Sequence record: PZ540767.1
Origin: a phage
Direction: 5' to 3' (one strand)
DNA length: 64,000 nucleotides
Shown here: in pieces, positions 20,871 through 63,871 of the stretch
Position numbering within the stretch: position 1 is the stretch's first letter
Layout: each line of letters begins with the position of its first letter
The notes under the pieces: model-generated
The model's database searches: none
What the model saw: the letters and a program-made list of their open reading frames with translations, nothing else
What the model was told of the DNA's origin: nothing
Position numbers and translations under genes: made by a program

Positions 20871-20939
20871 AATTACCTCTTTTGAAATGCCCCCGAAGGG
20901 GCAAACCCACAAAGGGAACGGAAGTTCCCCAACACACAA

Positions 20940-23099
20940 TTACTTAACTTTCTTGGCAATGGTGAGCATGATGCTGCCATCAATTTCACTCTCGTCCAGC
21001 TTACCGGGAAGCTTGTTGTTCAGTTCCTTCACCTGGCTTCTGATACGATCCAGAGAGAACCCTGCATCTACCAGTACCATGGCATAGTTGAACAGCTGCT
21101 TATTACGGTTACCATCACCAGTGTTGTTAAGTACCCAACGTTCCAGATTATCCAGTTGATGCTGATCAGTAAGCATTTGCTTACGATCCTCGTTCTTACT
21201 GGTTTTAGGAATGAAGGGGAGCACATCGAATAGCTGACCATCCGTATACTCATAATGCCCTTTATGTGTTAACCATTTCTTAGAACGGTGTGAACACTGG
21301 TCATCAGCTTTAAATGGCAAGCCTTCAAGGACGTTGTTATAAAACTCCTTGTAGTCTTTGGCATCCAGCTTCAGCTCATAGTTAATAGGCAAAATGATAC
21401 GGAAACGGTTAGTCTCTTCGGTATGTCGTTTAGTGGTGTAATACAAAGCCCTGTAGTCTTTCAGCAGTAACTTAGCTGTAGACAACTGACAGGTTCCATC
21501 CACATCAATAACCAGAAGGTTAAAGCCAGGAATGGCATTCTCTTCATTACGATAACCGTTCATCACTTTATGGGTCAGCCAGTGAAGATCAGGCTGATTT
21601 ACCAGTCTGTGCAGTTGATCGAATGGTACGTCTTTAGGTACGAAACCAGTGGTTAAATCCTTGCTGTATGACAAGATCATCTCATCAAGGTTAGTTGGTT
21701 TCAGAGATTCACCACTCAGGAATAAGATGCCATCAGTGTAGCTTCGCTTCACAATGATGTTGTTTTTATAACCATAAGCAATAGCCAGGTTAATCATCTC
21801 ATCCTTCTGGTTTTTACCACCACGGAAATAAGGCAGATCCTCATCCATGTCAGCCAAAGTAACGTCTGTGCCTACATCAGCTAAATACTTAGCCAACTTG
21901 GCATAGTTACGTTCAGGCGTAAGCAGCTTGGCAAAAGCTTCACCACATTCTTCAGTAAGCTTAATGGCGTTCTCCAGATGATCCTGAGAAAGCACAGGTG
22001 AACCATCTACGAAAGCATAAGCAGCAGCCAACTTCATGCACTTAAAGTAACGGTTCTCAAGTTCACCCTTTTGGATAGTTTGATACTCGTTTAAGTGTTT
22101 GGATTTGGCTTCGCAGTCCAGACGGTACTGCAAGATGTTACGTAGTACTTCGCGTGGGATAGTGATAGCTTTACGAAGGTTAGAGATATCTGCCAGCTTC
22201 TCCAGCTTCTTACCTAGATCGGTAATGAAGGTATCAGCATTGGCATCAAACATCTGCTTCATAATGTCATCAGCTGTAATCCCTTCTGGTTTCTTAGCTT
22301 TCAGCAGGAAACCAAAGTGACAACGACGTGCATAGCCCATCTCCAGCATGTCATACAGACGACGTTCAGTTACATCCCCATCAAACAGCTTGGTTGGAGT
22401 ACCAAACAACAACATGTTAGTTGGAGTACTACCTACCAGCTTCTCATGGCGAACGTTTTCAGCAGACGATTTGATCAGCTTATCTTTTACTAAACCGAGG
22501 TCATAGAGTTCCAGGAAAGTATCCAGTACCTCAGTCTGACCTACCAGGTTTGCACCGATTTCATCAATCTGCAAGTTAACAGCACCTGCATTACCCATAA
22601 GCAGTTTATGACGCATCTGCTTAACTGCTGGGGTAGTACCAGAGTCAAAGCTAAACAGAAGACTGCCTAAGCTTTCAAACTCTTTACGCACCTTCTCCAG
22701 CTCATCTTCTGGGTCAACCAGATTAGACGCTGTGGATTTACGTTGAGCACGTTTCTGAGCAAGCTCAAACATGTTCTGTTCAGCTACTGTAGGGAAAGTT
22801 ACTTCCAGGAATCGTTCACGGAATCCTGCAAGCAATTCACGTTCGATCAGGCTGGTGGAATAGCCTTTACCAGTACCTGACGGAGACAGGTTCAGAGCGT
22901 AGATATTGATAGGCAGATCGTTACGATCATATCCTTTAATGACTGCTCGCATAGACGAGGCCATTACACCCCAGTAGTAAGCCAGAACTACCCTGAAAAA
23001 GAGTCGTTCTTCGTTAAGGGTTTTAGCATTGAGAAAATCAACGATCTTCTCACTGGTGGGATGATATTTCATCTCACTCACTGGTTTGATGGAGATCAT
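20940..23099 (-). CDS. Large replication protein, putative primase (719 aa)
   Basis: 'LLVIDVDGTC' DxD-type motif and glycine-rich 'SPSGTGKGYS'; position in replication module. Confidence 0.4.
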   Translation of the reverse strand: MISIKPVSEMKYHPTSEKIVDFLNAKTLNEERLFFRVVLAYYWGVMASSMRAVIKGYDRNDLPINIYALNLSPSGTGKGYSTSLIERELLAGFRERFLEVTFPTVAEQNMFELAQKRAQRKSTASNLVDPEDELEKVRKEFESLGSLLFSFDSGTTPAVKQMRHKLLMGNAGAVNLQIDEIGANLVGQTEVLDTFLELYDLGLVKDKLIKSSAENVRHEKLVGSTPTNMLLFGTPTKLFDGDVTERRLYDMLEMGYARRCHFGFLLKAKKPEGITADDIMKQMFDANADTFITDLGKKLEKLADISNLRKAITIPREVLRNILQYRLDCEAKSKHLNEYQTIQKGELENRYFKCMKLAAAYAFVDGSPVLSQDHLENAIKLTEECGEAFAKLLTPERNYAKLAKYLADVGTDVTLADMDEDLPYFRGGKNQKDEMINLAIAYGYKNNIIVKRSYTDGILFLSGESLKPTNLDEMILSYSKDLTTGFVPKDVPFDQLHRLVNQPDLHWLTHKVMNGYRNEENAIPGFNLLVIDVDGTCQLSTAKLLLKDYRALYYTTKRHTEETNRFRIILPINYELKLDAKDYKEFYNNVLEGLPFKADDQCSHRSKKWLTHKGHYEYTDGQLFDVLPFIPKTSKNEDRKQMLTDQHQLDNLERWVLNNTGDGNRNKQLFNYAMVLVDAGFSLDRIRSQVKELNNKLPGKLDESEIDGSIMLTIAKKVK

Positions 23100-23107
23100 A
23101 CTTGTCC

Positions 23108-24082
23108 TTATACTTCGAGATGACCAGAACGAATTAGCTCATCTTTTTGTTTACAGATTGGAAAGGCTGGGCAGTATGCACAAGCTTTAACTTGACCAGG
23201 GTTATGTACGATCATACCCACGTTGCCATCGTCAGCTAGACGCTTATAAGCTTCAGCCTCAGTGTCAAAGTTTTTGGTTGATCGGGTCATGTTTGCCGGG
23301 TTCTTGTAGTACTTCCAGACCGGAGCATCACGCCATAACTCTTCATCGGTACATTCAGGAATGTCTTCGTCTTTGGCCTGTTTATATTTCTCATACAGGG
23401 CAATACGACCTTCAACATACTTCTGAGTTTCTTCCAGAGAGAGCAACTGATAACGCTTGGTTTCAGTCTTTCGCTGTGGGTAGTTAGGGTTAGCTCTGGC
23501 TTGAGCACGTTGCCAGTCAGTAAAGATAAACTGGATAGACATTACATCTTTAGTAATGATATCCGGGTTAAGCCAGCGATAGATACTACCTTGCAGGGCA
23601 TAGTCCAGATCCTTACTACCCTTCATATAGCTGAAGGTTGAGGTGGACTTAAAGTCCTCTAAGGCACCATTACCTACAAAGTCAAACTTACCAGTAACAC
23701 GGTAACCCATGACTTCTTTCTCAGATCGGATTTCCATATACACTGGGATATCCCCAGCCTTCAATTCCCATGGTTTAGGGTTCACCTTAACCTTGGCAAT
23801 CAGATCAGGTGAGTAACCTAGCTTCTCCATAGCTTTAGGGAAGTTTTCCGGTGACCAAGCCAGCTCAATACCCGAGTGAATAGCTGTACCCATACGAGAC
23901 GCTACCAGGTCTTCCAGGTCAGCTGTTTGCAGCTCTGGAGGAACACGGGGAGTCAGTATCAACTGACGAATAGGCTTCAGCAGTTTGGTTGCTGAGAAGG
24001 TTCCAGGGATATAATCGTAATGATCAGTAGCCAGGAACACTGCCATAGATAATGGGATCTTAGTGTTGTTTGTGTAAATCAT
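23108..24082 (-). CDS. PD-(D/E)xK nuclease with C-terminal Cys cluster (Cas4/RecB-like exonuclease)
   Basis: C-terminal 'CAYCPAFPIC' cluster; track start is GTG 24091, first ATG at 24082. Confidence 0.45.
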   Translation of the reverse strand: MIYTNNTKIPLSMAVFLATDHYDYIPGTFSATKLLKPIRQLILTPRVPPELQTADLEDLVASRMGTAIHSGIELAWSPENFPKAMEKLGYSPDLIAKVKVNPKPWELKAGDIPVYMEIRSEKEVMGYRVTGKFDFVGNGALEDFKSTSTFSYMKGSKDLDYALQGSIYRWLNPDIITKDVMSIQFIFTDWQRAQARANPNYPQRKTETKRYQLLSLEETQKYVEGRIALYEKYKQAKDEDIPECTDEELWRDAPVWKYYKNPANMTRSTKNFDTEAEAYKRLADDGNVGMIVHNPGQVKACAYCPAFPICKQKDELIRSGHLEV

Positions 24083-24193
24083 AACAACCACCCAGTAAGG
24101 TTTGTGATCAGTTTAGCTACACCAAAGTACATGAAGAAACCTGCTGTAGCTCCCCAGGCTGCAAATGCTGCAAACACAAAGGTAGACATTAAC

Positions 24194-24661
24194 TTACTTA
24201 GCATTGGCTGATTCCTCGCCCCATAAGGCTGCATATGCTGCCAGATCTTCAAAGTTATCCAGCTTAAATTCACCCTGGTTTGCACGGACAATTTTCAGTA
24301 GGACTTGAATGAGCCACCCATCAGCCGGGGTAAGATCCTTACCACGAATCTTATTGAACAGCTCAATGACCAGTGGAATGGAACGTTCACCTTCTGCATT
24401 ATCATAGGTAACTGCACGATCCTCTAAATGCCCAGCAGCAGCCAGTAGTACCTTGTGGGCACTGACTGTTGTATCTACTGGTTTAGGTTTAAGATCTTCA
24501 AGCTGTGCCTTTAGGTCAGTTATAGCTTGCTCATACTTTTTAACCTGGTTTCCCCAGTAAACTTTTTTATGCTCTGCACAAGACATACCTAAGTAGTTCT
24601 TAGCCTCATGCAGACACTTTTCTGCATAAGCAAGAGAGCGTTTTAATGATCTTTTACTCAT
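24194..24661 (-). CDS. Hypothetical protein (155 aa)
   Basis: Internal ATG 24661 preceded by aaggaaa RBS and a GC hairpin. Confidence 0.5.
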   Translation of the reverse strand: MSKRSLKRSLAYAEKCLHEAKNYLGMSCAEHKKVYWGNQVKKYEQAITDLKAQLEDLKPKPVDTTVSAHKVLLAAAGHLEDRAVTYDNAEGERSIPLVIELFNKIRGKDLTPADGWLIQVLLKIVRANQGEFKLDNFEDLAAYAALWGEESANAK

Positions 24662-24718
24662 TTGGATTTCCTTTGCAAAGAATTCACAGAGTGCCCGGAA
24701 GGGCACCCCACAAAACAC

Positions 24719-26449: not shown

Positions 26450-26451
26450 GC

Positions 26452-32272: not shown

Positions 32273-32298
32273 AAGCCCCTTTATTAGGGGCTTTTTTA
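32273..32298 (+). terminator. Intrinsic terminator (partial), before lysis cassette
   Basis: aagcccct-ttatt-aggggctt hairpin followed by TTTT. Confidence 0.55.
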
Positions 32299-34030: not shown

Positions 34031-34048
34031 TAGCTACCAGCATGAATA

Positions 34049-34073
34049 AGCCCCCATTTGGGGGCTTTTTTAT
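34049..34073 (+). terminator. Intrinsic terminator
   Basis: agccccc-attt-gggggct hairpin followed by TTTTTT. Confidence 0.65.
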
Positions 34074-35748: not shown

Positions 35749-35773
35749 TGAAAAAGCCCTCCGAAGAGGGCTT
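35749..35773 (-). terminator. C(UUCG)G tetraloop terminator/attenuator
   Basis: On - strand: 8-bp stem with UUCG loop then UUUU, immediately followed by RBS of next gene. Confidence 0.5.
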
Positions 35774-35777: not shown

Positions 35778-36101
35778 TTACTTAGGTGAACCTGTGTAGG
35801 ACGTCTTGCCTTCAAACAGCCTTTCTACATACTGGAAGATCTTAATCCCCAGATAGGCAGATGCTGAAGTGAATATGGGTTGCGTAATCCCAGTAGGCAA
35901 CTGACTTGCCACTACAGGGTAGGCATCCCATGCCAAATAGCCTGCGAGTAGAGCTGCTGACATTTCTGTAGCTGCTGCAACGAAGGTTACCTGACCATAG
36001 CGTAGGATTCGTCTCCCAACGGAGATTGCACCACTGACAGTACTAATCAGGAGAGCACCCAGTAGCTGAACATAAAAGTTCTGTTGCTGATCTGGGGTCA
36101 T
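35778..36101 (-). CDS. Membrane protein (107 aa)
   Basis: ATG 36101 after ggag RBS; two or three hydrophobic helices. Confidence 0.45.
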   Translation of the reverse strand: MTPDQQQNFYVQLLGALLISTVSGAISVGRRILRYGQVTFVAAATEMSAALLAGYLAWDAYPVVASQLPTGITQPIFTSASAYLGIKIFQYVERLFEGKTSYTGSPK

Positions 36102-36146
36102 GACACTACTCCAATTCACTTACATGAAATGGATTGTAACGTTAAT

Positions 36147-36521: not shown

Positions 36522-37015
36522 GGATCCTCTACGCTAAACTTGGGCACCAAGATAGCGCTGACGTTAGGCAGGTATTTTCTGACTTTATTAATGACAGATT
36601 TGTCATCATCGATCAGGAAAATTTCTACTTTATCCATCGTAGTCATGGCACCCATGCAAAACATTGGGATCAGTGACAGCAATGCTTCCAGTTTGAAGTT
36701 AGCTGCACTTCCACCCAGATTTTCACTGCGGTTATGGAGTAAGTCGAAGATAAGATTACCTTCTTCTTTGAAACGATCGTTTGTTTCTTTATCCAGAACT
36801 TTGCTACGGTTAGACAGACTAATCAGAACTGAATCCTGATTAATCAGCGATTTAACCATTTCAATACCTTTATGGTTCAAAGGCTCTAAGATCCAGGCTT
36901 TATGCCAATCAAGCCACTCGTGCTGGTTTGATGGGTCTTTGGGGATGTACTGCTTTCGAAACTCACTGTTACCGTTTAGAACTCCGTCCAGGTCACAGAA
37001 GATCAGTCTACGCAT
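36515..37015 (-). CDS. HAD-superfamily phosphatase-like protein
   Basis: N-terminal 'FCDLDGVLNG' (HAD motif I DxDG). Confidence 0.5.
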   Translation of the reverse strand: MRRLIFCDLDGVLNGNSEFRKQYIPKDPSNQHEWLDWHKAWILEPLNHKGIEMVKSLINQDSVLISLSNRSKVLDKETNDRFKEEGNLIFDLLHNRSENLGGSAANFKLEALLSLIPMFCMGAMTTMDKVEIFLIDDDKSVINKVRKYLPNVSAILVPKFSVEDPW

Positions 37016-39632
37016 GTGATGCCTCTTTTTGTTTTAGCTTATCCAGTGCTTTAGCCACAAAGGGCTTTATATCATCTTCTGCGAGGTTGTTAGGCAGAGT
37101 GATAGCATTGGCCCAGTTGGGATAATACAAGTCCAGTTCAGCTGGCAGAGGGATTCGTGGATCAGCAATTTCAGGTAAACCTTTCCATGCCATACACTCG
37201 ATCAAGTTGTCATTAACAAACTTGATTACCCTTACGTTGTTACGCATCAGCACATAGATAGCATCATGAATCAGAGCCACAGGCAGAATGTCATAACGAA
37301 ACTCTGAAGCCCACACACGCTCCATGAACTCATTAGCAGCACGGTTGGTTAACAGACCATAAGACTGACCTGAGATAGCATTGCCTAATGTACGTCCCTC
37401 AGCTTCAGCTTCACGTAGCGTCTTGGTGGTATCCAGGATCGAACGTGCAAGGAGCGGGGTACGAATACGCAGCCCAAAGGCAGCAGTGGCATAGCCGTCA
37501 TTACAGGCTTGTCTGATGCGTTCTTTAACCCATTCACCCGATACAGCATAGAGTGCATGGAAACTGGCTTCAGTTTCTTTGGCTTCCTCTTCAGAGAAAC
37601 CACAGTTCTTAACCAGGGTAATCCAGGTGCCTTGATACTGAAGTGCAAAGCTTGGTGCTTTAGACTTATTACGTAGCGGGTAGTATGGGTGATCCTTTTC
37701 AGCTATCTGGTTTACAGAAGCTGGATCATTAATGTCGATATCCGGCATTAACTTGGCACCCCAATAGCCCACAGCACGTAACGAGTGACCGTCGAAGCCA
37801 TCCGTGAACACTTTGACCTTGTTAGGATCTTGTGTTAACAGTGCATTGATACGATCTTCCAGAGCATTAAAGTCTGCTCCACCGAATACCCAACCATCGG
37901 GTGCAGCAAAGCATTTCTTGATGAGTTTACCGAAGGTACTCCCAGAAGGTAGCTGCTGTAGGTTTGGATCCGATGAGCTTAATCGCCCTGATACTGTACC
38001 ACCCAGGTTGAAGTTACCATGAAGGTAAGATCTTCCATTACCTTTGTTGAAGGCATTTTTAAAGGTGGGTATAAAACTGGTGAGGATCTTCTCACCGTCT
38101 CCAAACTCACGAAGAGTTTTGAGTACTATCTTTCCACTTTCAGTAGCATGGTTTTCCAGCTTCTTAAGTGTTGCACCAGCCGTAGATGGCTGCTTGGTTT
38201 TGGTTCTGTCCAGCACAGGAAGTTTCATCACTTCATAAAGTAAAGTGATCAGATGGTTGCCACTATTAGGGTTAAACTTAAGGTGACTGAAAGCACTGAG
38301 AGGGTACTGTTTAGTCTTCAGAGTGGCATTCTTAGCTTCCATTGCTCTGGTTTGAATAAGCAATTCTGCTTTCTGAACCAGGGGGTGTGCATACAAAGTT
38401 TTAAGACTTCGATCATGCAATTCCTGTAATTGCTTCTCTGCCTTATCCACCATAGCGGGGATCATAGGCATACCAGTAAGTTCAATCTGGGTGATTGTCT
38501 TCTGGCTTGGCATCATCAGGTATTTATACAGCTCAAGCTGCATATCACGAACCATAACAGGGTAATACTTGTTATAGACGTACCAGGTAGACATGGTATC
38601 GATGATGTTATAGCGGAGCAGTTCAGGCAGGGGGATCACCAGGATATTGGTAATATCAGACATAGCCCAGTTACCTGCAAATTCATGAGCAAGCTGTTTC
38701 AAGCTCAGTTCATTTTTTGCAGTATTGTTCAGTGCGAGATAAGCAATGATGCGAGTATCATCACAATCTCGATAGAGACAATCCAGGCCACGCAGTAAAC
38801 CTTCATTATCCAGGGGATCTTTCATCCAGAGGTTATAGATCAGGACTTTGGTATCAAAGTTAGCCCTGTGGAATTTCAGGTTACCCTTATATTCCTCAAA
38901 GAACTTACGCAGCTTAATACGAAAGCCTTCGTTAAACCAACGGTAGTTTTCCCCTTCACTTACTGCAAGGTCACAGGTAAATGCTATACCGCCTGTATTA
39001 TCAGGGCTGAAAGCAATAGTACCAATGCCAGCAGTAAAGATATCAAGACTGAAAGTTTCGATATCACAGGTCAGCTTAGGGTAAGACATTAACTTGGCAA
39101 ATGCCTCGTCAATTTCCTTTTCAGTCTGGGGATACAAAGCCCATTTCAGGATATCAGCACCCAAAGCTTTATAGCTGTTGGTTACCTTACCTGCTAAGGC
39201 TTGCACAGACATTTCCAGTTTATCTGCCTGGTTTGGGTTATAGAGTAGAGCCTGATAGTTAATACCTACCAGTATTTCAATATCCTCGTACCCCGGTATT
39301 GAACAGGGAGTGCCATAACCGATCATTGCATCGATCTTGGCATTCTTAACCAGACACTTAAAGTAAGTGGAGTCAGCACAGTAAATGTACTTAACACCCA
39401 TCTTCTTAAGCTGAGGGAGAATTTTAGCCAGATAATCCTTACAGAACTTGGCTGGAGCTTTACCATTGGATTCATACTCTAGCGAAAACGCCAGAATGTT
39501 CTCTTTGGCATAGCCAGCTTCGACTAAAGGATTAACGTAGTGACGCTCAATCTGATCCTGATAGAAAGCAGACTCTTTGATGAGTATTGCTGTCTCGAAT
39601 TCAGGTTTATGAGCGAACATGATATGACGCAT
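37008..39632 (-). CDS. DNA polymerase, family A
   Basis: 874 aa; exonuclease-like 'CDIETFSLD', polymerase region with 'LIHDAIYV'; N4 gp39-like position. Confidence 0.8.
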   Translation of the reverse strand: MRHIMFAHKPEFETAILIKESAFYQDQIERHYVNPLVEAGYAKENILAFSLEYESNGKAPAKFCKDYLAKILPQLKKMGVKYIYCADSTYFKCLVKNAKIDAMIGYGTPCSIPGYEDIEILVGINYQALLYNPNQADKLEMSVQALAGKVTNSYKALGADILKWALYPQTEKEIDEAFAKLMSYPKLTCDIETFSLDIFTAGIGTIAFSPDNTGGIAFTCDLAVSEGENYRWFNEGFRIKLRKFFEEYKGNLKFHRANFDTKVLIYNLWMKDPLDNEGLLRGLDCLYRDCDDTRIIAYLALNNTAKNELSLKQLAHEFAGNWAMSDITNILVIPLPELLRYNIIDTMSTWYVYNKYYPVMVRDMQLELYKYLMMPSQKTITQIELTGMPMIPAMVDKAEKQLQELHDRSLKTLYAHPLVQKAELLIQTRAMEAKNATLKTKQYPLSAFSHLKFNPNSGNHLITLLYEVMKLPVLDRTKTKQPSTAGATLKKLENHATESGKIVLKTLREFGDGEKILTSFIPTFKNAFNKGNGRSYLHGNFNLGGTVSGRLSSSDPNLQQLPSGSTFGKLIKKCFAAPDGWVFGGADFNALEDRINALLTQDPNKVKVFTDGFDGHSLRAVGYWGAKLMPDIDINDPASVNQIAEKDHPYYPLRNKSKAPSFALQYQGTWITLVKNCGFSEEEAKETEASFHALYAVSGEWVKERIRQACNDGYATAAFGLRIRTPLLARSILDTTKTLREAEAEGRTLGNAISGQSYGLLTNRAANEFMERVWASEFRYDILPVALIHDAIYVLMRNNVRVIKFVNDNLIECMAWKGLPEIADPRIPLPAELDLYYPNWANAITLPNNLAEDDIKPFVAKALDKLKQKEASHA

Positions 39633-39649
39633 AGCCTACCTCTCTAGTG

Positions 39650-39679
39650 GCATACGAAAGAAAAGGGGCCGAAGCCCCT
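39650..39679 (-). terminator. C(UUCG)G tetraloop terminator/attenuator upstream of DNA polymerase
   Basis: On - strand: aggggc-uucg-gcccct followed by UUUUCUUUC, then RBS and ATG 39632. Confidence 0.5.
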
Positions 39680-44036: not shown

Positions 44037-44242
44037 TTGAATATCCTCAAGTAAGATTTACTAAGACTTTTAATAAGAAAAAGCCAGAATAAATCTGGCT
44101 TATTTGTTAGGCAGCTTGATTTAAGGCTTCAATACCTTGTGGTGTGAGGTGCCAGCCATACATCTGATTAAACTTGATAAGGCCAGCTTTAGCTAAAGCA
44201 GTCCCTGTACGGTTTTTATTAGAACGAGGGGCAGTACCAGAC

Positions 44243-48103: not shown

Positions 48104-49156
48104 TTAGAAAAGTTCGTCAGCGTGGCGAGTACACCAGTTGCTTACCTCAGCATTACTGCCGAGTTTAGGGTTACGTGCAATGATGCTGCGCATTGAGATT
48201 ACCTGGTAGGACGCTGGCATACGCTCAATGAAGGTCATTGCTTTAGCAATGTTATCTTCAGCTACACCACGAGCCAGTACACCAGTCAGCGCATACATCC
48301 AGGATGGTTCATTAGTAGGGATACGAGCACCTTCAGGATCTTTGAGGATCTGTTCCATAGTTACTACTTTAGAGAAGTAGGTAACGAAGGTACGGAAGCT
48401 ACGTCCAGTGGCTACACCTACAGTGCCGTCGATCATCGGTTCCCAGCCTTCAATAGATTCCAGCGGGGTGATGAGCTTGGACAGCATAGACCAGGTACGA
48501 GCACACGCATGGGTATACTCGTTGGCATCCGGGTTGAATTTGTTGAATGCATCTGGCTCGTAGTTGAGGAATGCCACAATACGAGGATCCAGAGTTGCAG
48601 TGAACAGTTTCAGCCAGTACTTCAGGTTTTCTTTGATGGTCAGGTTGACCACACGAGAACCCAGAGCAGTACCCAGAGAGGATGCAATTGCACCATCATC
48701 TTCACGGTTACCAGCAGCCATGATCCACATACGTTTGTGTACGTGTTTCTGGCCTACTTTCTTGTCCAGAATGAACTTGTAGCTTGCAGCTTTGGTGTCG
48801 TCAGCAGCAGAGGTCAGTTCGTCCAGCAGTACCAGGAAACCAGCGTACTGCTTGCCAGTTTTAGGGTTAACCGGGATAGGATCACCTTCCAGCGGGATTT
48901 CATCCAGAGGGATGTATTTACCCTTGGTTTTGTCATCGTTGAAGCCCAGTACGCCATTCATGTCTACTGGTTCCATACCAGCCAAACGCAGGTCGATCAG
49001 CAGCAGGTTGTAAGTATCAGCTACTTCCTGCGCAATAGAGGATTTACCGAAGCCAGGAGCACCATACAGCATTGGTACAAGACCCTGCTTCATGATGTGG
49101 GCTACGGTAGTAGCAGCTTTGGAAATGTCGAGCGGAGTTGTCAGAGTCGTTGCCAT
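48104..49156 (-). CDS. MoxR-like AAA+ ATPase
   Basis: Walker A 'GAPGFGKSS', Walker B 'LVLLDELT'; adjacent to vWA gene. Confidence 0.6.
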   Translation of the reverse strand: MATTLTTPLDISKAATTVAHIMKQGLVPMLYGAPGFGKSSIAQEVADTYNLLLIDLRLAGMEPVDMNGVLGFNDDKTKGKYIPLDEIPLEGDPIPVNPKTGKQYAGFLVLLDELTSAADDTKAASYKFILDKKVGQKHVHKRMWIMAAGNREDDGAIASSLGTALGSRVVNLTIKENLKYWLKLFTATLDPRIVAFLNYEPDAFNKFNPDANEYTHACARTWSMLSKLITPLESIEGWEPMIDGTVGVATGRSFRTFVTYFSKVVTMEQILKDPEGARIPTNEPSWMYALTGVLARGVAEDNIAKAMTFIERMPASYQVISMRSIIARNPKLGSNAEVSNWCTRHADELF

Positions 49157-54157: not shown

Positions 54158-54412
54158 AGGAGCCTCTTTAGGATATAGGTTAAGACTGTCTTAAACCCCG
54201 TTAGCCTATAGGTTACTTTAGTCAAAATGGGGATTTTTGGTAAATTTAGAATATAGGTTGAAAGCGTACTAGTAGTACTAAGAAGTACTACCAGAACACT
54301 CTGAACTACTAAAAATGAGGGGAGACTAGCTCCCCTGCCAAAGGCATAGATAAGAATTAAGTGATGGTAATGAGTCGAGCGACTCACAGAAGTGACCGGA
54401 GGTCACAAAGGC

Positions 54413-54697: not shown

Positions 54698-54748
54698 AAG
54701 ATCCTCTTTACCGTTGATGGAAACACTCGCAAAGATGCCCGGAGGGCA

Positions 54749-55156
54749 TCAACGCTTAGTATTATCGCTATATATTTTATTGAAGAAGTTAAAAGCATCA
54801 GCGATATCAGATGTACTTTTAGGTTCCTGAATAGACCGATCATAGATAAATTGTTTAGGGTTGTTTATTTCCTGTCTTCTGAGCACTTCCTCTAGCATCT
54901 TACGTTGAAAATCTTTCATAGAGTTGTACACAGGTTGCTCCTCATTGCCTGGTTTCCAGTAGATCCAGCCTAATGGGGCAGACTCTAAGTCCATTTCAAT
55001 TCCTGGGATGGAATTTTTATGAATGACTTCAAATTGCCCTTCTACTGCTGCTATGACAGTAACTGGTTTCAGCTCCAGTTCTTGTATGCCTATGGCATTA
55101 GCTGTTTTGATTCTCTTAACAGTGCCCCTTGGCACCATGTATTTTATTGTGTCCAT
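54749..55156 (-). CDS. Paralogue 3 of 'KxIKTxxAIG' family (135 aa)
   Basis: N-terminal 'GTVKRIKTANAIGIQELELKP'; first ATG 55156. Confidence 0.5.
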   Translation of the reverse strand: MDTIKYMVPRGTVKRIKTANAIGIQELELKPVTVIAAVEGQFEVIHKNSIPGIEMDLESAPLGWIYWKPGNEEQPVYNSMKDFQRKMLEEVLRRQEINNPKQFIYDRSIQEPKSTSDIADAFNFFNKIYSDNTKR

Positions 55157-55610: not shown

Positions 55611-55642
55611 CCTCAAAAAATAAACCTACCCCGAAGGGTAGG
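55611..55642 (-). terminator. C(UUCG)G tetraloop intrinsic terminator after RNAP II genes
   Basis: On - strand: 7-bp stem cctaccc/gggtagg with UUCG loop followed by UUUAUUUUUU. Confidence 0.6.
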
Positions 55643-55649: not shown

Positions 55650-56924
55650 TTAGCTTAATGCATAGTTGGAACCACGGATTTTATCTCCGAGGTTGTTAGA
55701 CAGTTTGGTATATACCCCATCAGTGCTTCCATACAGCTGGTTCATCAGGGATTGCAGAATGGTGCTATCAGCGAATTCTGCCAGCATCTCTTTGTACCAG
55801 TACCGTACTTCATTACAGTTGTTTGGATGGGAACCAAAGGCATCGTGAACAGTAGCCACAGGGAATGGTTTGTAGGTCAGCATGAAGTTAACTTTACGCA
55901 TTACATCACGAGCTAAGTCGATAGGTAACTGCATGTAGTTGCTCCAGTTGATATCGTTGAGAATAACCATAGAAGACTGCTTATTCTCATTCCACAGACG
56001 GATACGACGTACCATATCACCAGTAGCTTCTTCAGCCTGCATACCCATGCTATTAGCCAGCAGACGTGCTTCCAGCATCTTCTGCACCTCTGCTACCAGT
56101 TCTGGATCGTAGTTGCACAGACGCTCCAGCTCACGCAGCAGATAGGCATCACAGCAGTGAATGGTATTGGCTACGTTAGCTCGGCCTTTCTCTGTACCCC
56201 GGTTCTCTTTGTATTCCATGGTGAAAGTAGCGTGATCAAGCTCATCTACTTCAATTCTGGTTTCCAGAGTTTCCATGACTTTCATCTTAGCGATGAAGCC
56301 ATCAGGCAGCTCCAGAACGTGTTCCAGAGCATACGGACGCCAGGAACCCAGGAGTTCATCCATGAGGTTGAACGCACCAGGAGCGATGATGTGGGCTGCT
56401 TCGTAGAAGTAGTCCAGCATCTCGCCCTCACCGAATACCTTCTTAGGCACAGCCTTAGAACCGTAACCAGAGGTCATTACAGCTTGTTTGATATGGCTAC
56501 GAGGTACTTGGATACTATCCAGACCTTTACGCTTCAGAACGCCATTCATGGCGTCTGTAGTGTTGCTGTAGGCATCCATACGCTTCTCTGGGTCAATACA
56601 ACCAGTGTTGTATGCACCTCTCTCACAGCCTGTGAGGGCACTCATAATCTGAATTCCAGAGCAGCAACCATCCCAGTAGGTGATGTTGCCTACAGCTTCC
56701 CCACGCTGTACACGACGTAAAGTCATAACAGCTTTGTGGTACAGCTCAGGGGTTTCAGCATCTTGAACCTTAGATTCCAGATCCTTGATGTTGTCGTATA
56801 CCCACTGAATACGTTCTTCGAACAGTTTCTTGTCCAGACCGTAATAGTTGGCTACGTCGATGCACATGTATTCCCAACCAGACATATATTTGAAGTTTGG
56901 GCCATAAGCGGTGTTGATTACCAT
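55650..56924 (-). CDS. Phage RNA polymerase II, large (catalytic) subunit; T7-like single-subunit RNAP C-terminal half
   Basis: 'DGCCSGIQIMSALTG' (T7 RNAP motif A-like DGSCSGIQ) and 'VHDAFGSHP' (motif C-like HDSFG). Confidence 0.85.
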   Translation of the reverse strand: MVINTAYGPNFKYMSGWEYMCIDVANYYGLDKKLFEERIQWVYDNIKDLESKVQDAETPELYHKAVMTLRRVQRGEAVGNITYWDGCCSGIQIMSALTGCERGAYNTGCIDPEKRMDAYSNTTDAMNGVLKRKGLDSIQVPRSHIKQAVMTSGYGSKAVPKKVFGEGEMLDYFYEAAHIIAPGAFNLMDELLGSWRPYALEHVLELPDGFIAKMKVMETLETRIEVDELDHATFTMEYKENRGTEKGRANVANTIHCCDAYLLRELERLCNYDPELVAEVQKMLEARLLANSMGMQAEEATGDMVRRIRLWNENKQSSMVILNDINWSNYMQLPIDLARDVMRKVNFMLTYKPFPVATVHDAFGSHPNNCNEVRYWYKEMLAEFADSTILQSLMNQLYGSTDGVYTKLSNNLGDKIRGSNYALS

Positions 56925-56941
56925 TAGTTAAGTCTCTCTAT

Positions 56942-57949
56942 TTAAAGTTTAAATTCATCAGGCACACCAGTTACTTGCTCTTTATTGGCAAAGTTTAAAC
57001 TGGCTTTCTTGAAGGGAGTGCCTTGAAGGTTGATGTGATAACCCTGGGTATACAGACGTCCACGTTTGTCAGGTTTATTGCCAAAGTAGAACTTATTACC
57101 CTGGTTTACCATCAGGCTATAGAAGTAGTACGACTGACGTTTGTAACGCATCCAGTTGTCTTTCTGTTTACGTACCAGATCAGCCTTCTCCCACGGTGTG
57201 AGAGGTTTCTTACGGTGTTTCTGGAGCTTCTCTTCATCGATCTCATTGAGATCAAATGTAGGTTCTTCTTCGTAGTTACAGAGGAATTCTACGTCCAGAG
57301 AGTAAGGCACAGCATTACGGCTGTTGATTACATCCAGACAGATATCCTCATTATGGTGATTGAATGATCCCCCTAGAATAAGGCTATCAGATGAATAAGT
57401 AAGGTAAGGAGTATCCATGTTATGGGTAAGCTTCTTGGGTGGGCAAACCAGTGGTGGTAGATAACACGAACGCTCAATGAATTGAGCCAACTGGTCAGGC
57501 AACCCAATATTGCTAACGATATACAGAGATGCTTTAGGATGAGGCTTGTTAATGTCATATACATCAGTATCCGTAAGGACAGCAACGATTTCAGCCATAG
57601 TCTGAATGCTGTCACGTTTATCATCGAAACCCAGTCTGGAAGCCAGCTGGCCTACTACGTTGACCATTGGAGTAGGTTCAGGGAAATACATAATTCCCAC
57701 GAACACTTCTTTCACAATAGCTTCCAGATCAAGGGATTTGAGGTGGTTAAGGCGTACAGCTTTAGAGTCGTAATACTCACCCTCAAGCCACTGGTTTAAC
57801 AGAGATACACCCTGTTCTACCTTGTCTAACAGGTTGCAATCAGGGTCTTCAAACAGCTCTTTACGGATATAACCATCAATATGTTTCCTGTTGAACTGAC
57901 GTTCATTGATGGCCTGAAGTTCCTCAACTGGTAACCATTTATGCTGCAT
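56942..57949 (-). CDS. Phage RNA polymerase II, small subunit (N-terminal half of split T7-like RNAP)
   Basis: Immediately upstream of catalytic subunit in same orientation; 335 aa; N4 gp15/gp16-like split arrangement. Confidence 0.65.
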   Translation of the reverse strand: MQHKWLPVEELQAINERQFNRKHIDGYIRKELFEDPDCNLLDKVEQGVSLLNQWLEGEYYDSKAVRLNHLKSLDLEAIVKEVFVGIMYFPEPTPMVNVVGQLASRLGFDDKRDSIQTMAEIVAVLTDTDVYDINKPHPKASLYIVSNIGLPDQLAQFIERSCYLPPLVCPPKKLTHNMDTPYLTYSSDSLILGGSFNHHNEDICLDVINSRNAVPYSLDVEFLCNYEEEPTFDLNEIDEEKLQKHRKKPLTPWEKADLVRKQKDNWMRYKRQSYYFYSLMVNQGNKFYFGNKPDKRGRLYTQGYHINLQGTPFKKASLNFANKEQVTGVPDEFKL

Positions 57950-58992: not shown

Positions 58993-59011
58993 CATTGCCC
59001 TGTGGGCAATG
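58993..59011 (-). promoter_or_regulatory. Hairpin promoter candidate (N4 vRNAP-type), instance 1
   Basis: + strand gcaTTCATTgccc-TGT-gggcaatg: 8-bp stem, 3-nt loop; ~60 nt upstream of ATG 58931. Confidence 0.5.
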
Positions 59012-59014
59012 TTT

Positions 59015-59275: not shown

Positions 59276-59565
59276 GAGAATGAGATCCGTTGTTCAAGGA
59301 TAACTGGGACTCCAATGGCTACTTTAGCCATCAGAGCTTTAATTTCACGCATATCTACTTTGATAGTGAAGTTCTTTTTATAAAAACCATCTAGCGAAGC
59401 TGGGAAGTCTACCACTGCAATACGTGGAAACTTCTCCAGTGCTACATTGAATTTGGTAATAGTGATAGTGGCATTAATGCCAATGTTGAAGTCACTATAA
59501 TAAGATATAGTACCTTCACCCAGCATCTTAGAATGCCAGTTAAATACTTGGTTAGAATTGGTCAT
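59272..59565 (-). CDS. Hypothetical early protein (97 aa)
   Basis: ATG after ggaga RBS. Confidence 0.4.
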   Translation of the reverse strand: MTNSNQVFNWHSKMLGEGTISYYSDFNIGINATITITKFNVALEKFPRIAVVDFPASLDGFYKKNFTIKVDMREIKALMAKVAIGVPVILEQRISFS

Positions 59566-59806
59566 CGTCTAGTTTCTCCAGACACAGATACTGACCTTTG
59601 CTCATAATTGCATAGTCAATACCATTAAGAGTTAGATAGTCTTCAGTCCCCAGATTTCTGCTACCATCACGCATCTTGTTCTGTAGTCTTATGTCCTCTG
59701 GTTTAATACCAATGGCTAGTTTAGTTTGAATAGTTTTAGCTTCAGCTTCATCTACCCTAACCATCAATGAGGGATGAATATCCCCAAATACAGCATAGTA
59801 GCTCAT
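59552..59806 (-). CDS. Hypothetical early protein (84 aa)
   Basis: ATG; acidic. Confidence 0.4.
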   Translation of the reverse strand: MSYYAVFGDIHPSLMVRVDEAEAKTIQTKLAIGIKPEDIRLQNKMRDGSRNLGTEDYLTLNGIDYAIMSKGQYLCLEKLDDDQF

Positions 59807-60344: not shown

Positions 60345-60566
60345 TCATTTATTGTCCTGTGGACAATATACCTCCCAATCTGTCCATTTTTGAGCTAGGA
60401 AGCCTTCTACAGTATCTGTGATAGTATGGCCATCAAGAAATCTTACAAGTATTATACTATCCTGGGACAATGTTATATAAGAACCACTATCCCATACTGA
60501 TCTTTTTATCTTAGCCCCTAGTTTCAGCATTAATAATGCTTCTTTAGCAGTCATATAATGTACCAT
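60345..60566 (-). CDS. DUF2829/Tad2-like small protein, copy 1
   Basis: N-terminus 'MTAKEALLMLKLGAKIKRSVW'. Confidence 0.5.
   Translation of the reverse strand: MVHYMTAKEALLMLKLGAKIKRSVWDSGSYITLSQDSIILVRFLDGHTITDTVEGFLAQKWTDWEVYCPQDNK
60350..60368 (-). promoter_or_regulatory. Hairpin promoter candidate, instance 2
   Basis: + strand ataTTCATTtattgtcc-TGT-ggacaata; overlaps 3' end of the preceding small ORF; ~75 nt upstream of ATG 60278. Confidence 0.5.
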
Positions 60567-61128: not shown

Positions 61129-61174
61129 CCCCTGTCTCCAGTAGACCGATTCACAAGAGTGTTCGGAGAACACG

Positions 61175-61204
61175 TTAATAAACTAAGCCCTCCAGTGAGG
61201 GCTT
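61175..61204 (-). terminator. Hairpin, terminator-like, upstream of the paralogue array
   Basis: aagccctc-cagt-gagggctt 8-bp stem; U/A-rich downstream on - strand. Confidence 0.4.
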
Positions 61205-61208
61205 TTGT

Positions 61209-61922: not shown

Positions 61923-61935
61923 AATTACCTCTGGT

Positions 61936-62127: not shown

Positions 62128-62192
62128 GATTTAATCCTCTAATTCAGCATATTGATTAATAGCCCTGGTTTCACAGGGCTTATTAAATAGGG

Positions 62193-62477: not shown

Positions 62478-62529
62478 AGTTAATACTCCAATAGGTTATA
62501 TACCCTGGCTTACACCAGGGCTTGAGTGA

Positions 62530-62745: not shown

Positions 62746-62782
62746 AGGTATATCTCCAATAGATTAAGTGGACACTTCTATT

Positions 62783-62800
62783 CATTGCCTGTAGGCAATG
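62783..62800 (-). promoter_or_regulatory. Hairpin promoter candidate, instance 3
   Basis: + strand cttctaTTCATTgcc-TGTA-ggcaatg; 7-bp stem. Confidence 0.5.
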
Positions 62801-62930
62801 CATGGTCGTAGTACTGTCGCTGTCGCTTCGTACTACTCCCTGTGTAATACCAGTGTTCATTAGAATGGCTTACAGAGACTGTGACTATTAGTTATTATTT
62901 TAAAGGCAACCCGTTAGGGTTGCCTCTATT

Positions 62931-63152
62931 TCAAAACGGAATCTCATCACTGAATCCTGACAGATTCACTGGATAAAACTCATGCCAGTAATAAGACTGA
63001 TCATGAGCCTCAATGGACTCTGCACGGATTTCCTTATACATACCACTGTTACGAACTTCTTGCAGGGCAGCTTCCGCTTCCTCAAGAGTTCCAAAGGTAT
63101 CTACAAAGGTATCTGCATAGAGATCCCCAGGTACAACAGTAAGTAAGAACAT
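62931..63152 (-). CDS. Acidic early protein with SSB-tail-like C-terminus (73 aa)
   Basis: ATG after ggaga RBS; ends '...NLSGFSDEIPF'; first gene after hairpin promoter instance 4. Confidence 0.5.
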   Translation of the reverse strand: MFLLTVVPGDLYADTFVDTFGTLEEAEAALQEVRNSGMYKEIRAESIEAHDQSYYWHEFYPVNLSGFSDEIPF

Positions 63153-63203
63153 AATATGTTCTCCAAATCAATGATAGGACACCATGTCCTATCTCTTCTA
63201 TTC

Positions 63204-63220
63204 ATTCTCCTGTGGAGAAT
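63204..63220 (-). promoter_or_regulatory. Hairpin promoter candidate, instance 4
   Basis: + strand cttctaTTCATTctcc-TGT-ggagaat; 7-bp stem, 3-nt loop; ~52 nt upstream of ATG 63152. Confidence 0.5.
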
Positions 63221-63769
63221 ACCACTGATGCTTAAGTGCAAGAGAACTACGTAGTAGTTCTCCTTGCATACTTCCACTGAAGGTATAGGTACACTTTGTG
63301 TGTAAGATATAGGTTGGTTTAGGTATGAGGTAGGTGGATGATAGGATATAGGGTGAGTATAGAAACATTACCAAAGTAGTAATTTGACACTCAATTCCCA
63401 TCATTTCCTATATAAGTTAACTGGTCACGGTACTGAGTGATTAGGTTATCGGAGTACACCGTTAGGGTGTACGGAGATAACTGGTGATTCTACATAGAAT
63501 AGATCTATAGCTATGTGATGACTGAGGGTGGGTTAGTGAGGGATTGTGTTAAGGGATTGAGTGAGATAGTAACACTGTGTCAAGTGGTTTGTCTTATATC
63601 ATTTTGTTATAAGCATATTCAGAATTGATATATAGATTAATCTGGACTGGTTTATCAGTAACTTACTGTATACAGGAAGTAGTACAGAGTTAGACTGACA
63701 TACGCCAGAGAGTAAGTTTGCCACAAGTTTTGAAACGGAGTAGCGCACCTGTACTGTCATGTAGCACAG

Positions 63770-63801
63770 TGTGTATTGTGTATGATGTGTATTGTGTATG
63801 A
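63770..63801. repeat. Perfect 16-bp tandem duplication (tgtgtattgtgtatga x2)
   Basis: Read directly: 63770-63785 identical to 63786-63801, in non-coding C-poor region. Confidence 0.8.
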
Positions 63802-63840
63802 GTCGAAGACACCGCAACACCGAAGCGAAGCGAGTGTGTA

Positions 63841-63871
63841 AGGTAATTAAATAGCTCACCCGAAGGTGAGC
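63841..63871 (-). terminator. C(UUCG)G tetraloop terminator after the partial gene at window end
   Basis: On - strand: gctcacc-uucg-ggtgagc followed by UAUUUAAUU. Confidence 0.5.

What the first reader, a model, noticed from the sequence alone, without database searches (positions are those of the whole stretch)
20889..63871. Recurrent C(UUCG)G tetraloop hairpins as intergenic punctuation on minus-strand transcripts
Five intergenic hairpins on the minus strand have the extra-stable C(UUCG)G tetraloop: 20889-20902, 35754-35773, 39664-39679, 55625-55642 and 63854-63871. Most are followed by a U-rich tract and then directly by the RBS and start of the next gene. Related GC hairpins with UUCC loops sit at 20914-20929 and 24691-24706. 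The + strand terminators (223, 2070, 17055, 32273, 34049) use different loops. This looks like a deliberate family of partial terminators or RNA-stability elements setting expression ratios within the middle operons.
Basis: seen in the sequence. Interest (0 to 1): 0.5.

Follow-up and report, generated by a model that had tools for sequence, protein, structure and literature searches.

The report
UUCG-capped terminator hairpins in an N4-like phage
The five C(UUCG)G hairpins are real, non-random and conserved, but they are ordinary terminator-type RNA hairpins of a long-known kind, and the two "related" UUCC hairpins belong to a different, promoter-like hairpin family.

Summary
The window is an N4-like Klebsiella phage (Schitoviridae, Efbeekayvirus; 93-95% identical to FBKp27). 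All five C(UUCG)G hairpins sit at the stated coordinates. Each follows a stop codon and precedes the next ribosome-binding site. Five GC-rich UUCG-capped stems compare with 0.04 expected by chance, and all lie in the 4.4% of sequence that is non-coding.

They are conserved in relatives. Where the stem has diverged completely, the loop stays UUCG or becomes GAAA or UACG. Among 207 unique post-stop hairpins from the family, the sense-strand loop is UUCG 22 times and CGAA once, so they act as RNA.

Three (35754, 39664, 55625) have good U-tracts and score as intrinsic terminators. Two (20889, 63854) have weak tails.

UUCG is not specific to the minus strand. The window's plus-strand terminator at 32273 carries a UUCG loop in sister phages.

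The two UUCC hairpins belong to a five-member T(T)CC-loop family with a conserved downstream motif. This family resembles N4 hairpin promoters and does not score as terminators.

Verdict: a known kind of element (phage T4 and E. coli UUCG terminators), partly annotated already in FBKp27. Interest is low.

The parts
63854..63871 (-). C(UUCG)G hairpin after the first early gene, with a weak U-tail (UAUUUAAUUA). It is followed by about 660 nt of ORF-poor sequence.
   Evidence: Sequence. It passes the loose terminator scan but has a d-score of -8.1. It is conserved in FBKp27 and L002-L008. FBKp27 annotates a terminator at the homologous 40816-40860.
55625..55642 (-). C(UUCG)G hairpin plus UUUAUUUUUUG, directly after the RNAPII large-subunit gene (55650-56924). 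Terminator-quality.
   Evidence: d-score +24.2. It is retained in close relatives even when different small ORFs are inserted upstream of it. Phage N4 has AAGGCUAUCCC-UACG-GGGGUAGCCUU plus UAUUUUUUU at the same place after gp16. FBKp27 annotates a terminator at 48568-48611.
39664..39679 (-). C(UUCG)G hairpin plus UUUUCUUUCG, between the rIIB-like gene (39685-41562) and the DNA polymerase gene (37008-39632).
   Evidence: d-score +17 to +26. The syntenic hairpin in relatives with 63% polymerase identity is GGCCACC-UUCG-GGUGGCC. In L020 (59%) it is AGGGCUG-GAAA-CAGCCCU plus U6. N4 has a hairpin after rIIB.
35754..35773 (-). C(UUCG)G hairpin plus UUUUUC, after the 113-aa gene 35778-36119 (annotated 'holin' in FBKp27). 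It sits exactly at a mosaic junction.
   Evidence: d-score +21.9. It is identical in 7 close relatives, although two different downstream genes follow it. It is conserved in L018, L019 and L020. FBKp27 annotates a terminator at 67832-67870.
20889..20902 (-). C(UUCG)G hairpin with a poor U-tail (AUUUCAAAAG). It lies 10 nt downstream of the UUCC hairpin and 18 nt upstream of the ATG of the Sak4-like gene. It is the least terminator-like of the five and may be a 5'-leader hairpin.
   Evidence: It fails the terminator scan and has a d-score of -4.8. It is identical in 8 close relatives.
20914..20929 (-). GGGAAC-UUCC-GUUCCC hairpin followed by TTTGTGGG. Member of the T(T)CC promoter-like family, not a terminator.
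   Evidence: d-score -14.
24691..24706 (-). GUGCCC-UUCC-GGGCAC hairpin followed by TCTGTGAA. Member of the T(T)CC promoter-like family.
   Evidence: d-score -23. L060 has a similar element, GGTGCC-TTCC-CGGCAC-TCGGTGAA, placed after a UUCG terminator.
54734..54750 (-). GAUGCCC-UCC-GGGCAUC hairpin followed by TTTGCGAG. T(T)CC family; the template-strand loop is GGA, as in N4 promoters.
54392..54406 (-). GUGACC-UCC-GGUCAC hairpin followed by TTCTGTGAG. T(T)CC family.
61159..61173 (-). GUGUUC-UCC-GAACAC hairpin followed by TCTTGTGAA. T(T)CC family. It lies 11 nt after the hairpin at 61185-61204.
44081..44101 (-). Non-UUCG terminator hairpin on the same strand (loop UUUAU, tail UUUUUCUUAUUA), before the rIIA-like gene.
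   Evidence: d-score +16.4. FBKp27 annotates a terminator at 59532-59571.
18843..18863 (-). Non-UUCG post-stop hairpin (loop AAACC) after the SSB gene.
   Evidence: FBKp27 annotates a terminator at 10204-10245.
32273..32293 (+). Late-strand terminator AAGCCCC-UUUAUUA-GGGGCUU plus U6. Its homologue in sister phages has a UUCG loop.
34048..34067 (.). Bidirectional terminator between convergent gene blocks.
   Evidence: d-score +45.6 on the plus strand and +8.0 on the minus strand.
17052..17078 (.). Bidirectional terminator after the vRNAP gene, between convergent blocks.
   Evidence: d-score +19.2 on the plus strand and +25.6 on the minus strand.

Best explanation
The five hairpins are Rho-independent-type terminator or attenuator hairpins. 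They form in the nascent minus-strand RNA and are capped by the extra-stable C(UUCG)G tetraloop.

Proposed mechanism (inferred):
1. As the polymerase transcribes past a stop codon, the GC stem nucleated by the UUCG loop folds quickly.
2. Where a U-tract follows (35754, 39664, 55625), the hairpin destabilises the elongation complex, so a fraction of transcripts end there. By analogy with N4, the polymerase is the phage vRNAP or the T7-like RNAPII early and in the middle period, and possibly the host RNAP later.
3. The hairpin then sits at the 3' end of the RNA and should protect it against 3' exonucleases.
4. Read-through transcripts continue into the next gene, whose RBS follows directly. The sites therefore set expression steps within long co-directional operons.

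The two hairpins with poor U-tails (20889, 63854) probably terminate weakly and act mainly as RNA-stabilising structures. 20889 lies just downstream of a promoter-like hairpin, so it may form the 5' end of a transcript.

Shown here: structure, position, non-randomness, orientation bias and conservation with stem turnover. Inferred: termination itself, its efficiency, and which polymerase is involved.
For: - Perfect GC-rich stems sit after stop codons and directly before the next RBS.
- There are 5 such hairpins against 0.039 expected, all in non-coding sequence.
- Four of the five pass an independent hairpin-plus-U-tail scan. Terminator-like sites are enriched over shuffles: 35 against 14.9 +/- 3.7 in 37-57 kb, and 28 against 5.9 +/- 2.0 in 54-64 kb.
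- d-scores are +22, +17 to +26 and +24 for 35754, 39664 and 55625. These are comparable with the late-strand terminators, which score +19 to +46.
- Positions are conserved while stems turn over. Upstream of the DNA polymerase gene the stem is AGGGGC/GCCCCU in the window and GGCCACC/GGUGGCC in the 63% group, both with UUCG. In L020 it is AGGGCUG-GAAA-CAGCCCU.
- N4 has UACG or other hairpins after RNAPII-L, rIIB and primase.
- Orientation bias: the sense-strand loop is UUCG 22 times and CGAA once among 207 unique post-stop hairpins. As DNA the two strands are equally stable.
- FBKp27 annotates 'terminator' at the homologues of 63854, 55625 and 35754.
- Literature: UUCG and GAAA loops nucleate unusually stable hairpins that serve as Rho-independent terminators and occur in T4 mRNA (PMC3972237, citing Tuerk 1988 and d'Aubenton-Carafa 1990).
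- E. coli-type intrinsic terminators stop T7 RNAP with efficiencies from 0.01 to 0.91, and termination is possible with as few as 2 U (PMC8783025).
- In the N4-like phage LUZ7, mapped terminators are mostly weak and allow read-through (PMC9163698).
Against: - There are no RNA 3'-end data for this phage or any close relative.
- Two of the five (20889, 63854) have poor U-tails and negative d-scores.
- Termination signals for the N4-type vRNAP and RNAPII have not been defined in any source I could read.
- The d-score formula is recalled from memory and was used with modern energy parameters, so it is good for ranking only.
- Many of the family-wide hairpin counts are phylogenetically non-independent.
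Confidence: 0.75

Rival explanations
1. The hairpins do not terminate transcription at all. They are purely post-transcriptional elements: barriers that protect 3' ends made by processing, or 5'-leader hairpins that protect transcripts from RNase E or 5'-end-dependent decay. They would set expression ratios through differential segment stability of polycistronic RNA.
For: - 20889 and 63854 have weak U-tails and negative d-scores.
- Most early-region post-stop hairpins (58.6-63.5 kb) lack U-tracts altogether.
- 20889 lies 10 nt downstream of a promoter-like hairpin. An RNA started at the GTGGG motif would have the UUCG hairpin at about +7 to +20.
- The selection for extra-stable RNA loops (UUCG, UACG, GAAA) fits a stability role as well as it fits termination.
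Against: - 35754, 39664 and 55625 have U4-U6 tracts immediately 3' of the stem, and these tracts are conserved in relatives and in N4. A U-tract is not needed for a stability element.
- The same stem architecture (AAGCCC...GGGCUU plus U-run) is used at convergent gene ends and on the late strand, where termination is the obvious role.
- The two roles are not mutually exclusive.
Confidence: 0.15
2. The UUCG hairpins are hairpin-type promoters for a phage RNA polymerase, extruded as DNA. This would be like the N4 vRNAP early promoters or the GC-rich hairpin middle promoters reported for LUZ7. On this view they start, rather than end, transcripts for the gene that follows.
For: - Each lies 17-31 nt upstream of a start codon.
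- LUZ7 middle promoters are GC-rich hairpins with a stem of at least 6 bp and a 3-4 nt loop, about 15 bp upstream of the TSS (PMC9163698).
- Sigma-70-like promoters are depleted in this region.
Against: - No sequence motif is conserved downstream of the UUCG hairpins except U-richness. The T(T)CC family and the ACA family do have fixed-distance motifs.
- The template-strand loop would be the 4-nt CGAA, not a 3-nt loop with a central purine.
- A start about 12-15 nt from the loop centre would leave leaders of only about 5-20 nt.
- The same hairpin type occurs on late-strand and bidirectional terminators.
- The 22:1 preference for UUCG over CGAA points to the RNA-specific extra-stable loop, whereas as DNA the strands are equivalent.
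Confidence: 0.04
3. They are DNA-level elements (cruciforms, recombination or module-junction signals, replication or packaging signals), or simply chance palindromes.
For: Hairpins coincide with mosaic junctions. Different downstream genes follow an identical 35754 hairpin. Different small ORFs lie upstream of the 55625 hairpin. A different gene and stem precede the same U-tract upstream of the polymerase gene in L014.
Against: - Chance is excluded.
- A DNA-level palindrome has no reason to orient its loop, yet the sense-strand loop is UUCG 22 times and CGAA once.
- DNA folding energies are the same for both strands.
- Junction coincidence is expected anyway, because recombination between phages is tolerated only at gene boundaries.
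Confidence: 0.03

Closest known systems
C(UUCG)G hairpins in phage T4 intercistronic regions, and UUCG-capped Rho-independent terminators of E. coli (Tuerk et al. 1988 PNAS 85:1364; d'Aubenton-Carafa et al. 1990 JMB 216:835; as summarised in PMC3972237)
   Same: - Same loop and closing pair.
- GC stem, intercistronic position just after a stop codon, on the transcribed strand, often followed by a U-run.
- Over-representation relative to other tetraloops.
   Different: - The host phage is an N4-like podovirus. By analogy with N4, its early and middle genes are read by single-subunit-type phage polymerases rather than host RNAP.
- Nothing else differs in the element itself.
Experimentally mapped terminators of the N4-like Pseudomonas phage LUZ7 (ONT-cappable-seq, PMC9163698)
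   Same: - Same virus family.
- Many stable hairpins at gene ends, mostly weak with read-through, including bidirectional terminators between convergent genes.
   Different: - LUZ7 is distantly related, and loop sequences were not reported in the text I could read.
- There is no experimental mapping for the Klebsiella phages.
T7 RNAP class I termination at hairpin plus U-tract, used as 'transcriptional valves' (PMC8783025)
   Same: - Hairpin plus U-tract gives graded termination of a single-subunit phage RNAP.
- Efficiency depends on the number of U residues.
   Different: - That work is an engineered in vitro system.
- Whether N4-type vRNAP and RNAPII behave like T7 RNAP at such sites is inferred, not shown.
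N4 vRNAP hairpin promoters (Glucksmann 1992; Davydova 2007; Gleghorn 2008; as summarised in PMC3715699). Relevant to the two UUCC hairpins only.
   Same: - 5-7 bp stem with a small loop whose template-strand centre is a purine (GGA or GGAA).
- Sense orientation, upstream of genes.
- A conserved motif about 11-12 nt from the loop centre. N4 has the same layout at 90, 555 and 4546.
   Different: - The two cited hairpins have 4-nt loops.
- The flanking motif is TYTGYGRR, against TT(A/G)(T/G)G in N4.
- Five copies are spread from the early region into the replication module, rather than three at the genome end.
- The polymerase is unknown.

Membership tests
Intrinsic (Rho-independent) terminator | GC-rich stem (at least 5 bp) with a 3-8 nt loop in the transcript | tested here: met
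   All five have perfect stems of 5-8 bp, of which 4-5 are G-C pairs, and predicted stabilities of -11.2 to -13.5 kcal/mol.
Intrinsic (Rho-independent) terminator | U-rich tract immediately 3' of the stem | tested here: inconclusive
   Met for 35754 (U5), 39664 (U4CU3) and 55625 (U3AU6), with d-scores of +17 to +26. Weak for 63854 (UAUUUAAUUA, d -8) and 20889 (AUUUCAAAAG, d -5).
Intrinsic (Rho-independent) terminator | Located downstream of a gene end, in the sense orientation | tested here: met
   Four start 5-7 nt after a stop codon. 20889 starts 37 nt after one, with the UUCC hairpin in between.
Intrinsic (Rho-independent) terminator | RNA 3' ends and a read-through drop at the site | not testable with these tools
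   No transcriptome data are available. Only automated 'terminator' features exist in FBKp27 at 3 of the 5 homologous sites.
C(UUCG)G extra-stable tetraloop hairpin (Tuerk 1988 class) | UUCG loop closed by a C-G pair, on the transcribed strand | tested here: met
   All five read C-UUCG-G on the coding-sense strand. Family-wide, the sense-strand loop is UUCG 22 times and CGAA once.
C(UUCG)G extra-stable tetraloop hairpin (Tuerk 1988 class) | Loop retained or replaced by another extra-stable loop while the stem diverges | tested here: met
   At the site upstream of the polymerase gene, three unrelated stems carry UUCG, UUCG and GAAA. After RNAPII-L the loop is UUCG here and UACG in N4.
N4-type hairpin promoter, tested for the UUCG hairpins | 3-nt loop with a central purine on the template strand | tested here: not met
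   The template-strand loop is the 4-nt CGAA. The C-GAA-G triloop register is incompatible with the stem (sequence).
N4-type hairpin promoter, tested for the UUCG hairpins | Conserved initiation motif at a fixed distance from the loop | tested here: not met
   Only U-richness is shared downstream.
N4-type or LUZ7-type hairpin promoter, tested for the UUCC hairpins at 20914 and 24691 | Small purine-centred template-strand loop, GC stem of 5-7 bp, conserved start-site motif at a fixed distance, sense orientation upstream of a gene | tested here: inconclusive
   - Stem, orientation and motif (TYTGYGRR, with its G 11-12 nt from the loop centre) are met. They are shared with three UCC-loop hairpins and are the same five sites genome-wide in FBKp27.
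- The loops are 4 nt (GGAA on the template strand) rather than 3 nt.
- The motif was defined post hoc.
- No transcription start site data exist.

The most novel reading that the evidence does not exclude
The minus strand of this enterobacterial N4-like phage may carry three distinct hairpin 'alphabets':
1. ACA-loop hairpins, confined to the early region, as vRNAP early promoters.
2. T(T)CC-loop hairpins with a TYTGYGRR start motif, running from the early region deep into the replication module, as structured-DNA promoters for a phage polymerase. These would resemble the hairpin middle promoters so far reported only for LUZ7 and not for N4.
3. UNCG- or GNRA-capped terminators.

At 20.9 kb a promoter hairpin would be fused to a UUCG hairpin that becomes a 5'-terminal stabiliser of the Sak4/SSB operon mRNA. 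On this reading the UUCG hairpins are dual-use elements: 3' terminator or stabiliser for upstream RNA, and 5' stabiliser for RNA started just upstream.
Probability: 0.3. Interest if true: 0.4.

Novelty: already known. Interest (0 to 1): 0.15.

Why it matters
For the finding as stated, it matters little. It confirms that this phage group uses the textbook device of UUCG-capped terminator hairpins to segment its long early and middle operons, and that such sites are conserved module boundaries.

The practical value is for annotation:
- Two terminators missing from the FBKp27 record (homologues of 39664 and 20889) can be added.
- The UUCC and UCC hairpins should not be annotated as terminators.
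- The candidate hairpin-promoter families give concrete, testable positions for early and middle transcription starts. This is useful because middle promoters have been hard to define in this family outside N4 and LUZ7 (PMC9163698).

Tried and rejected
1. The idea that the plus-strand reading of C(UUCG)G gives the super-stable DNA C-GAA-G triloop typical of N4 promoters. Rejected: the complement is C-CGAA-G, a 4-nt loop, and the triloop register does not fit the stem.
2. The idea that UUCG marks early or middle (phage-RNAP) transcripts as opposed to late (host-RNAP) ones. Rejected by UUCG loops on late-strand terminators of sister phages, including the direct homologue of window 32273.
3. The expectation that the T(T)CC motif would also precede the first early gene, which lies outside the window. 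It was not found: FBKp27 has only the same five copies. So the family is not simply 'the' early promoter set. Instead an ACA-loop family turned up in the early region.
4. Rfam gave no family at gathering threshold anywhere in the window. ARAGORN found no tRNA genes.
5. Literature. Tuerk 1988, Davydova 2007 and Gleghorn 2008 are not held. The LUZ7 supplements are not held. The FBKp27 genome paper does not discuss terminators or hairpins. Statements about these papers beyond what PMC3972237 and PMC3715699 quote rest on my own knowledge. That includes the sequence of the N4 P2 promoter oligonucleotide and the d-score formula.
6. My crude gene caller misclassified some hairpins. It missed 44081, 63854, and the 35754 homologues in L013 and L016. 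These were checked by hand.

Full report
**Context**

The window is an N4-like podovirus of Klebsiella (Schitoviridae, genus Efbeekayvirus). A 6-kb probe is 93-95% identical to phages cp20, vB_KpP_FBKp27, P184 and others.

Using the FBKp27 annotation and ORFs, the layout is:
- Plus strand, 1-17050: late and structural genes, including the 3560-aa virion RNA polymerase.
- Minus strand, 17.1-28.4 kb: replication genes (SSB, Sak4-like, primase, exonuclease, RNR, ThyX).
- Plus strand, 28.3-34.0 kb: a tail and lysis block.
- Minus strand, 34.1-64 kb: middle genes (DNA polymerase, rIIA/B, RNAPII subunits at 55650-57949) and small early ORFs (58-64 kb).

By analogy with N4, the minus-strand genes are read by the injected vRNAP and the T7-like RNAPII, and the plus-strand genes by host RNAP. 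This assignment is an inference, based on PMC3715699.

**Observation**

All five C(UUCG)G hairpins exist exactly where stated, with perfect stems. Four begin 5-7 nt after a stop codon. 20889 begins 37 nt after one, with the UUCC hairpin in between. Four are followed within 17-31 nt by the next start codon.

GC-rich stems of at least 6 bp capped by TTCG occur five times, against 0.039 per simulated sequence (maximum 2 in 1000). All five are on the minus strand, within the 4.4% of the window not covered by crude gene calls. CTTCGG as a bare hexamer is about twofold enriched.

**Conservation**

I pulled 61 related loci from IMG/VR, anchored on RNAPII-L, DNA polymerase and primase. I also used FBKp27 and N4.

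All five hairpins are present in the close relatives. More telling are the distant ones.

Upstream of the DNA polymerase gene:
- The 63%-identity group has GGCCACC-UUCG-GGUGGCC where the window has AGGGGC-UUCG-GCCCCU.
- L020 (59%) has AGGGCUG-GAAA-CAGCCCU plus U6.
- A close relative with a different upstream gene (L014) has yet another stem in front of the same U-tract.

After the RNAPII large-subunit gene, N4 itself has AAGGCUAUCCC-UACG-GGGGUAGCCUU plus UAUUUUUUU. The window has CCUACCC-UUCG-GGGUAGG plus UUUAUUUUUU. N4 also has hairpins after rIIB and after primase.

So position and structure are conserved, stems turn over, and loops stay within the extra-stable RNA classes UNCG and GNRA.

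**RNA or DNA?**

Among 207 unique post-stop hairpins pooled from the window and all loci, 104 are tetraloops. UUCG is the commonest (22), followed by GAAA (7) and UACG (4). The reverse-complement loop CGAA occurs once in the sense orientation. Folded as DNA, the two strands of each hairpin are equally stable. The 22:1 orientation bias is what selection on the transcript predicts. It argues against cruciform or other DNA-level roles.

**Terminator quality**

The independent scan tool lists 35754, 39664, 55625 and 63854 as terminator-like, and 20889 fails. Terminator-like sites are enriched two- to five-fold over shuffles in 37-64 kb.

A d'Aubenton-Carafa-style score was used for ranking only, because I recalled the formula from memory:

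| Hairpins | d-score |
|---|---|
| Five plus-strand late terminators | +19 to +46 |
| 35754 | +22 |
| 39664 | +17 to +26 |
| 55625 | +24 |
| 20889 | -5 |
| 63854 | -8 |
| Most early-region hairpins | -1 to -54 |

This is a graded series, compatible with partial termination.

Three published results fit this picture:
- LUZ7 terminators are mostly weak and allow read-through (PMC9163698).
- E. coli-type terminators stop T7 RNAP with efficiencies of 0.01-0.91, depending on U count (PMC8783025).
- UUCG and GAAA hairpins are an established feature of T4 mRNA and of Rho-independent terminators (PMC3972237).

FBKp27's GenBank record already carries 'terminator' features at the homologues of 63854, 55625 and 35754.

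**What is not supported**

1. Strand or class specificity. The window's plus-strand terminator at 32273 (AAGCCCC-UUUAUUA-GGGGCUU plus U6) aligns base for base with AAGCCCC-UUCG-GGGGCUU plus U6 in L012 and L015, in front of the same downstream gene. Other late-strand UUCG terminators occur in L014, L016, L019, L020, L059 and L062.

2. Relatedness of the UUCC hairpins. The hairpins at 20914 and 24691 group with three UCC-loop hairpins at 54392, 54734 and 61159. All five share a downstream motif T-Y-T(T)-G-Y-G-R-R, whose G lies 11-12 nt from the loop centre. The same five, and only those, occur in the whole FBKp27 genome, all in the sense orientation. Relatives at about 60% identity have T(T)CC hairpins with other stems and a similar CGA(A/T)GA flank, almost all on the sense strand. 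These hairpins lack U-tails and score -12 to -50 as terminators.

In N4 the hairpins before gp1, gp2 and gp15 have the same layout: GTTGC-ttc-GCAAC-TTATGG, AGAAGAAGC-tcc-GCTTCTTTT-GGATG and AAGCTGC-tcc-GCAGCTT-TTGG. The second matches the P2 promoter as I remember it from the vRNAP-promoter crystal structure. PMC3715699 confirms that N4 promoters are small hairpins contacted at the central loop purine of the template strand. I therefore read the T(T)CC hairpins as promoter-type DNA hairpins. Which polymerase uses them is unknown.

In L060 a UUCG terminator is followed by such a hairpin. In the window at 20.9 kb the order is reversed. There the weak-tailed UUCG hairpin at 20889 would sit near the 5' end of any transcript started at GTGGG, and may act as a 5' stabiliser. 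This is inference.

**Mechanism**

Best explanation (confidence 0.75): these are intrinsic-terminator-type RNA hairpins whose UUCG cap speeds and stabilises folding. They give partial termination where a U-tract follows, and they protect the resulting 3' ends. Read-through feeds the next gene.

Rivals:
- Purely post-transcriptional stability elements (0.15; likeliest for 20889 and 63854).
- Hairpin promoters (0.04).
- DNA-level signals or chance (0.03).

**Novelty**

The kind is textbook: T4 intercistronic CUUCGG hairpins and UUCG over-representation in E. coli terminators. Homologous sites are partly annotated already. The specific hairpin census for Efbeekayvirus is not in the FBKp27 paper, but it adds no new principle. 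Interest is 0.15. The by-product, candidate early (ACA-loop) and T(T)CC-loop hairpin-promoter families, is the more useful lead.

Noticed in passing
window minus strand 61159-61173, 54734-54750, 54392-54406, 24691-24706, 20914-20929: A five-member family of GC-stem hairpins with T(T)CC loops (GGA or GGAA on the template strand). Each is followed at a fixed distance by T-Y-T(T)-G-Y-G-R-R. All are in the sense orientation, 30-45 nt upstream of start codons. The same five are the only copies in the whole FBKp27 genome. They resemble N4 vRNAP promoters and the LUZ7 hairpin middle promoters, and are candidate phage-RNAP promoters extending into the replication module.
   Followed up: partly
window minus strand 63203-63221, 62783-62800, 60350-60368, 58993-59011 (FBKp27 41388, 43576, 44931): A second hairpin family confined to the early region: YATTSYCC-(T)ACA-GGRSAATR followed by AAT(A/G)(A/C)A. 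The stem is 7-8 bp, and the template-strand loop is TGT (TGTA in the 62783 copy) with a central purine. Compensatory stem differences occur between copies and between phages. These are candidate vRNAP early promoters.
   Followed up: partly
window 63190-63853 (minus-strand sense); FBKp27 40847-41444: About 600-660 nt of ORF-poor, AC-rich sequence with short repeats (CATACACAATACACA...). It lies directly after the first early gene and its UUCG hairpin. FBKp27 annotates no CDS there. The listed 68-aa ORF at 63198-63404 overlaps an ACA hairpin and is probably spurious. The stretch could be a leader, a non-coding RNA or a region of injection or terminal-repeat signals.
   Followed up: no
window 35754-35773, 55625-55642, 39664-39679, and loci L011-L017 and L002-L008: Terminator hairpins coincide with mosaic junctions. 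An identical 35754 hairpin plus U5 is followed by two unrelated downstream gene alleles. Three different small-ORF insertions precede an unchanged 55625 hairpin. L014 has a different gene and stem in front of the same U-tract upstream of the DNA polymerase gene.
   Followed up: partly
window 17000-64000: Sigma-70-like promoter matches are depleted relative to dinucleotide shuffles: 16 against 34.5 +/- 5.6, 23 against 33.9 +/- 6.3, and 16 against 26.2 +/- 5.9. This is consistent with transcription mainly by phage polymerases or with avoidance of host promoters.
   Followed up: no
window 39633-39660 (minus strand); L018 and L020 just upstream of the DNA polymerase gene: The translation-initiation region of the DNA polymerase gene (CCAC(T/G)AGAGAGGT...ATG) is conserved down to 59% protein identity, while the terminator stem just upstream is replaced.
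   Followed up: no
window 61185-61204 versus 35754-35773: Two hairpins share the identical 8-bp stem AAGCCCUC/GAGGGCUU but have different loops (ACUG versus UUCG). The same stem recurs with UACU or UACG loops in N4-like relatives (L023, L026). This suggests recurrent reuse or convergence of a preferred terminator stem.
   Followed up: no
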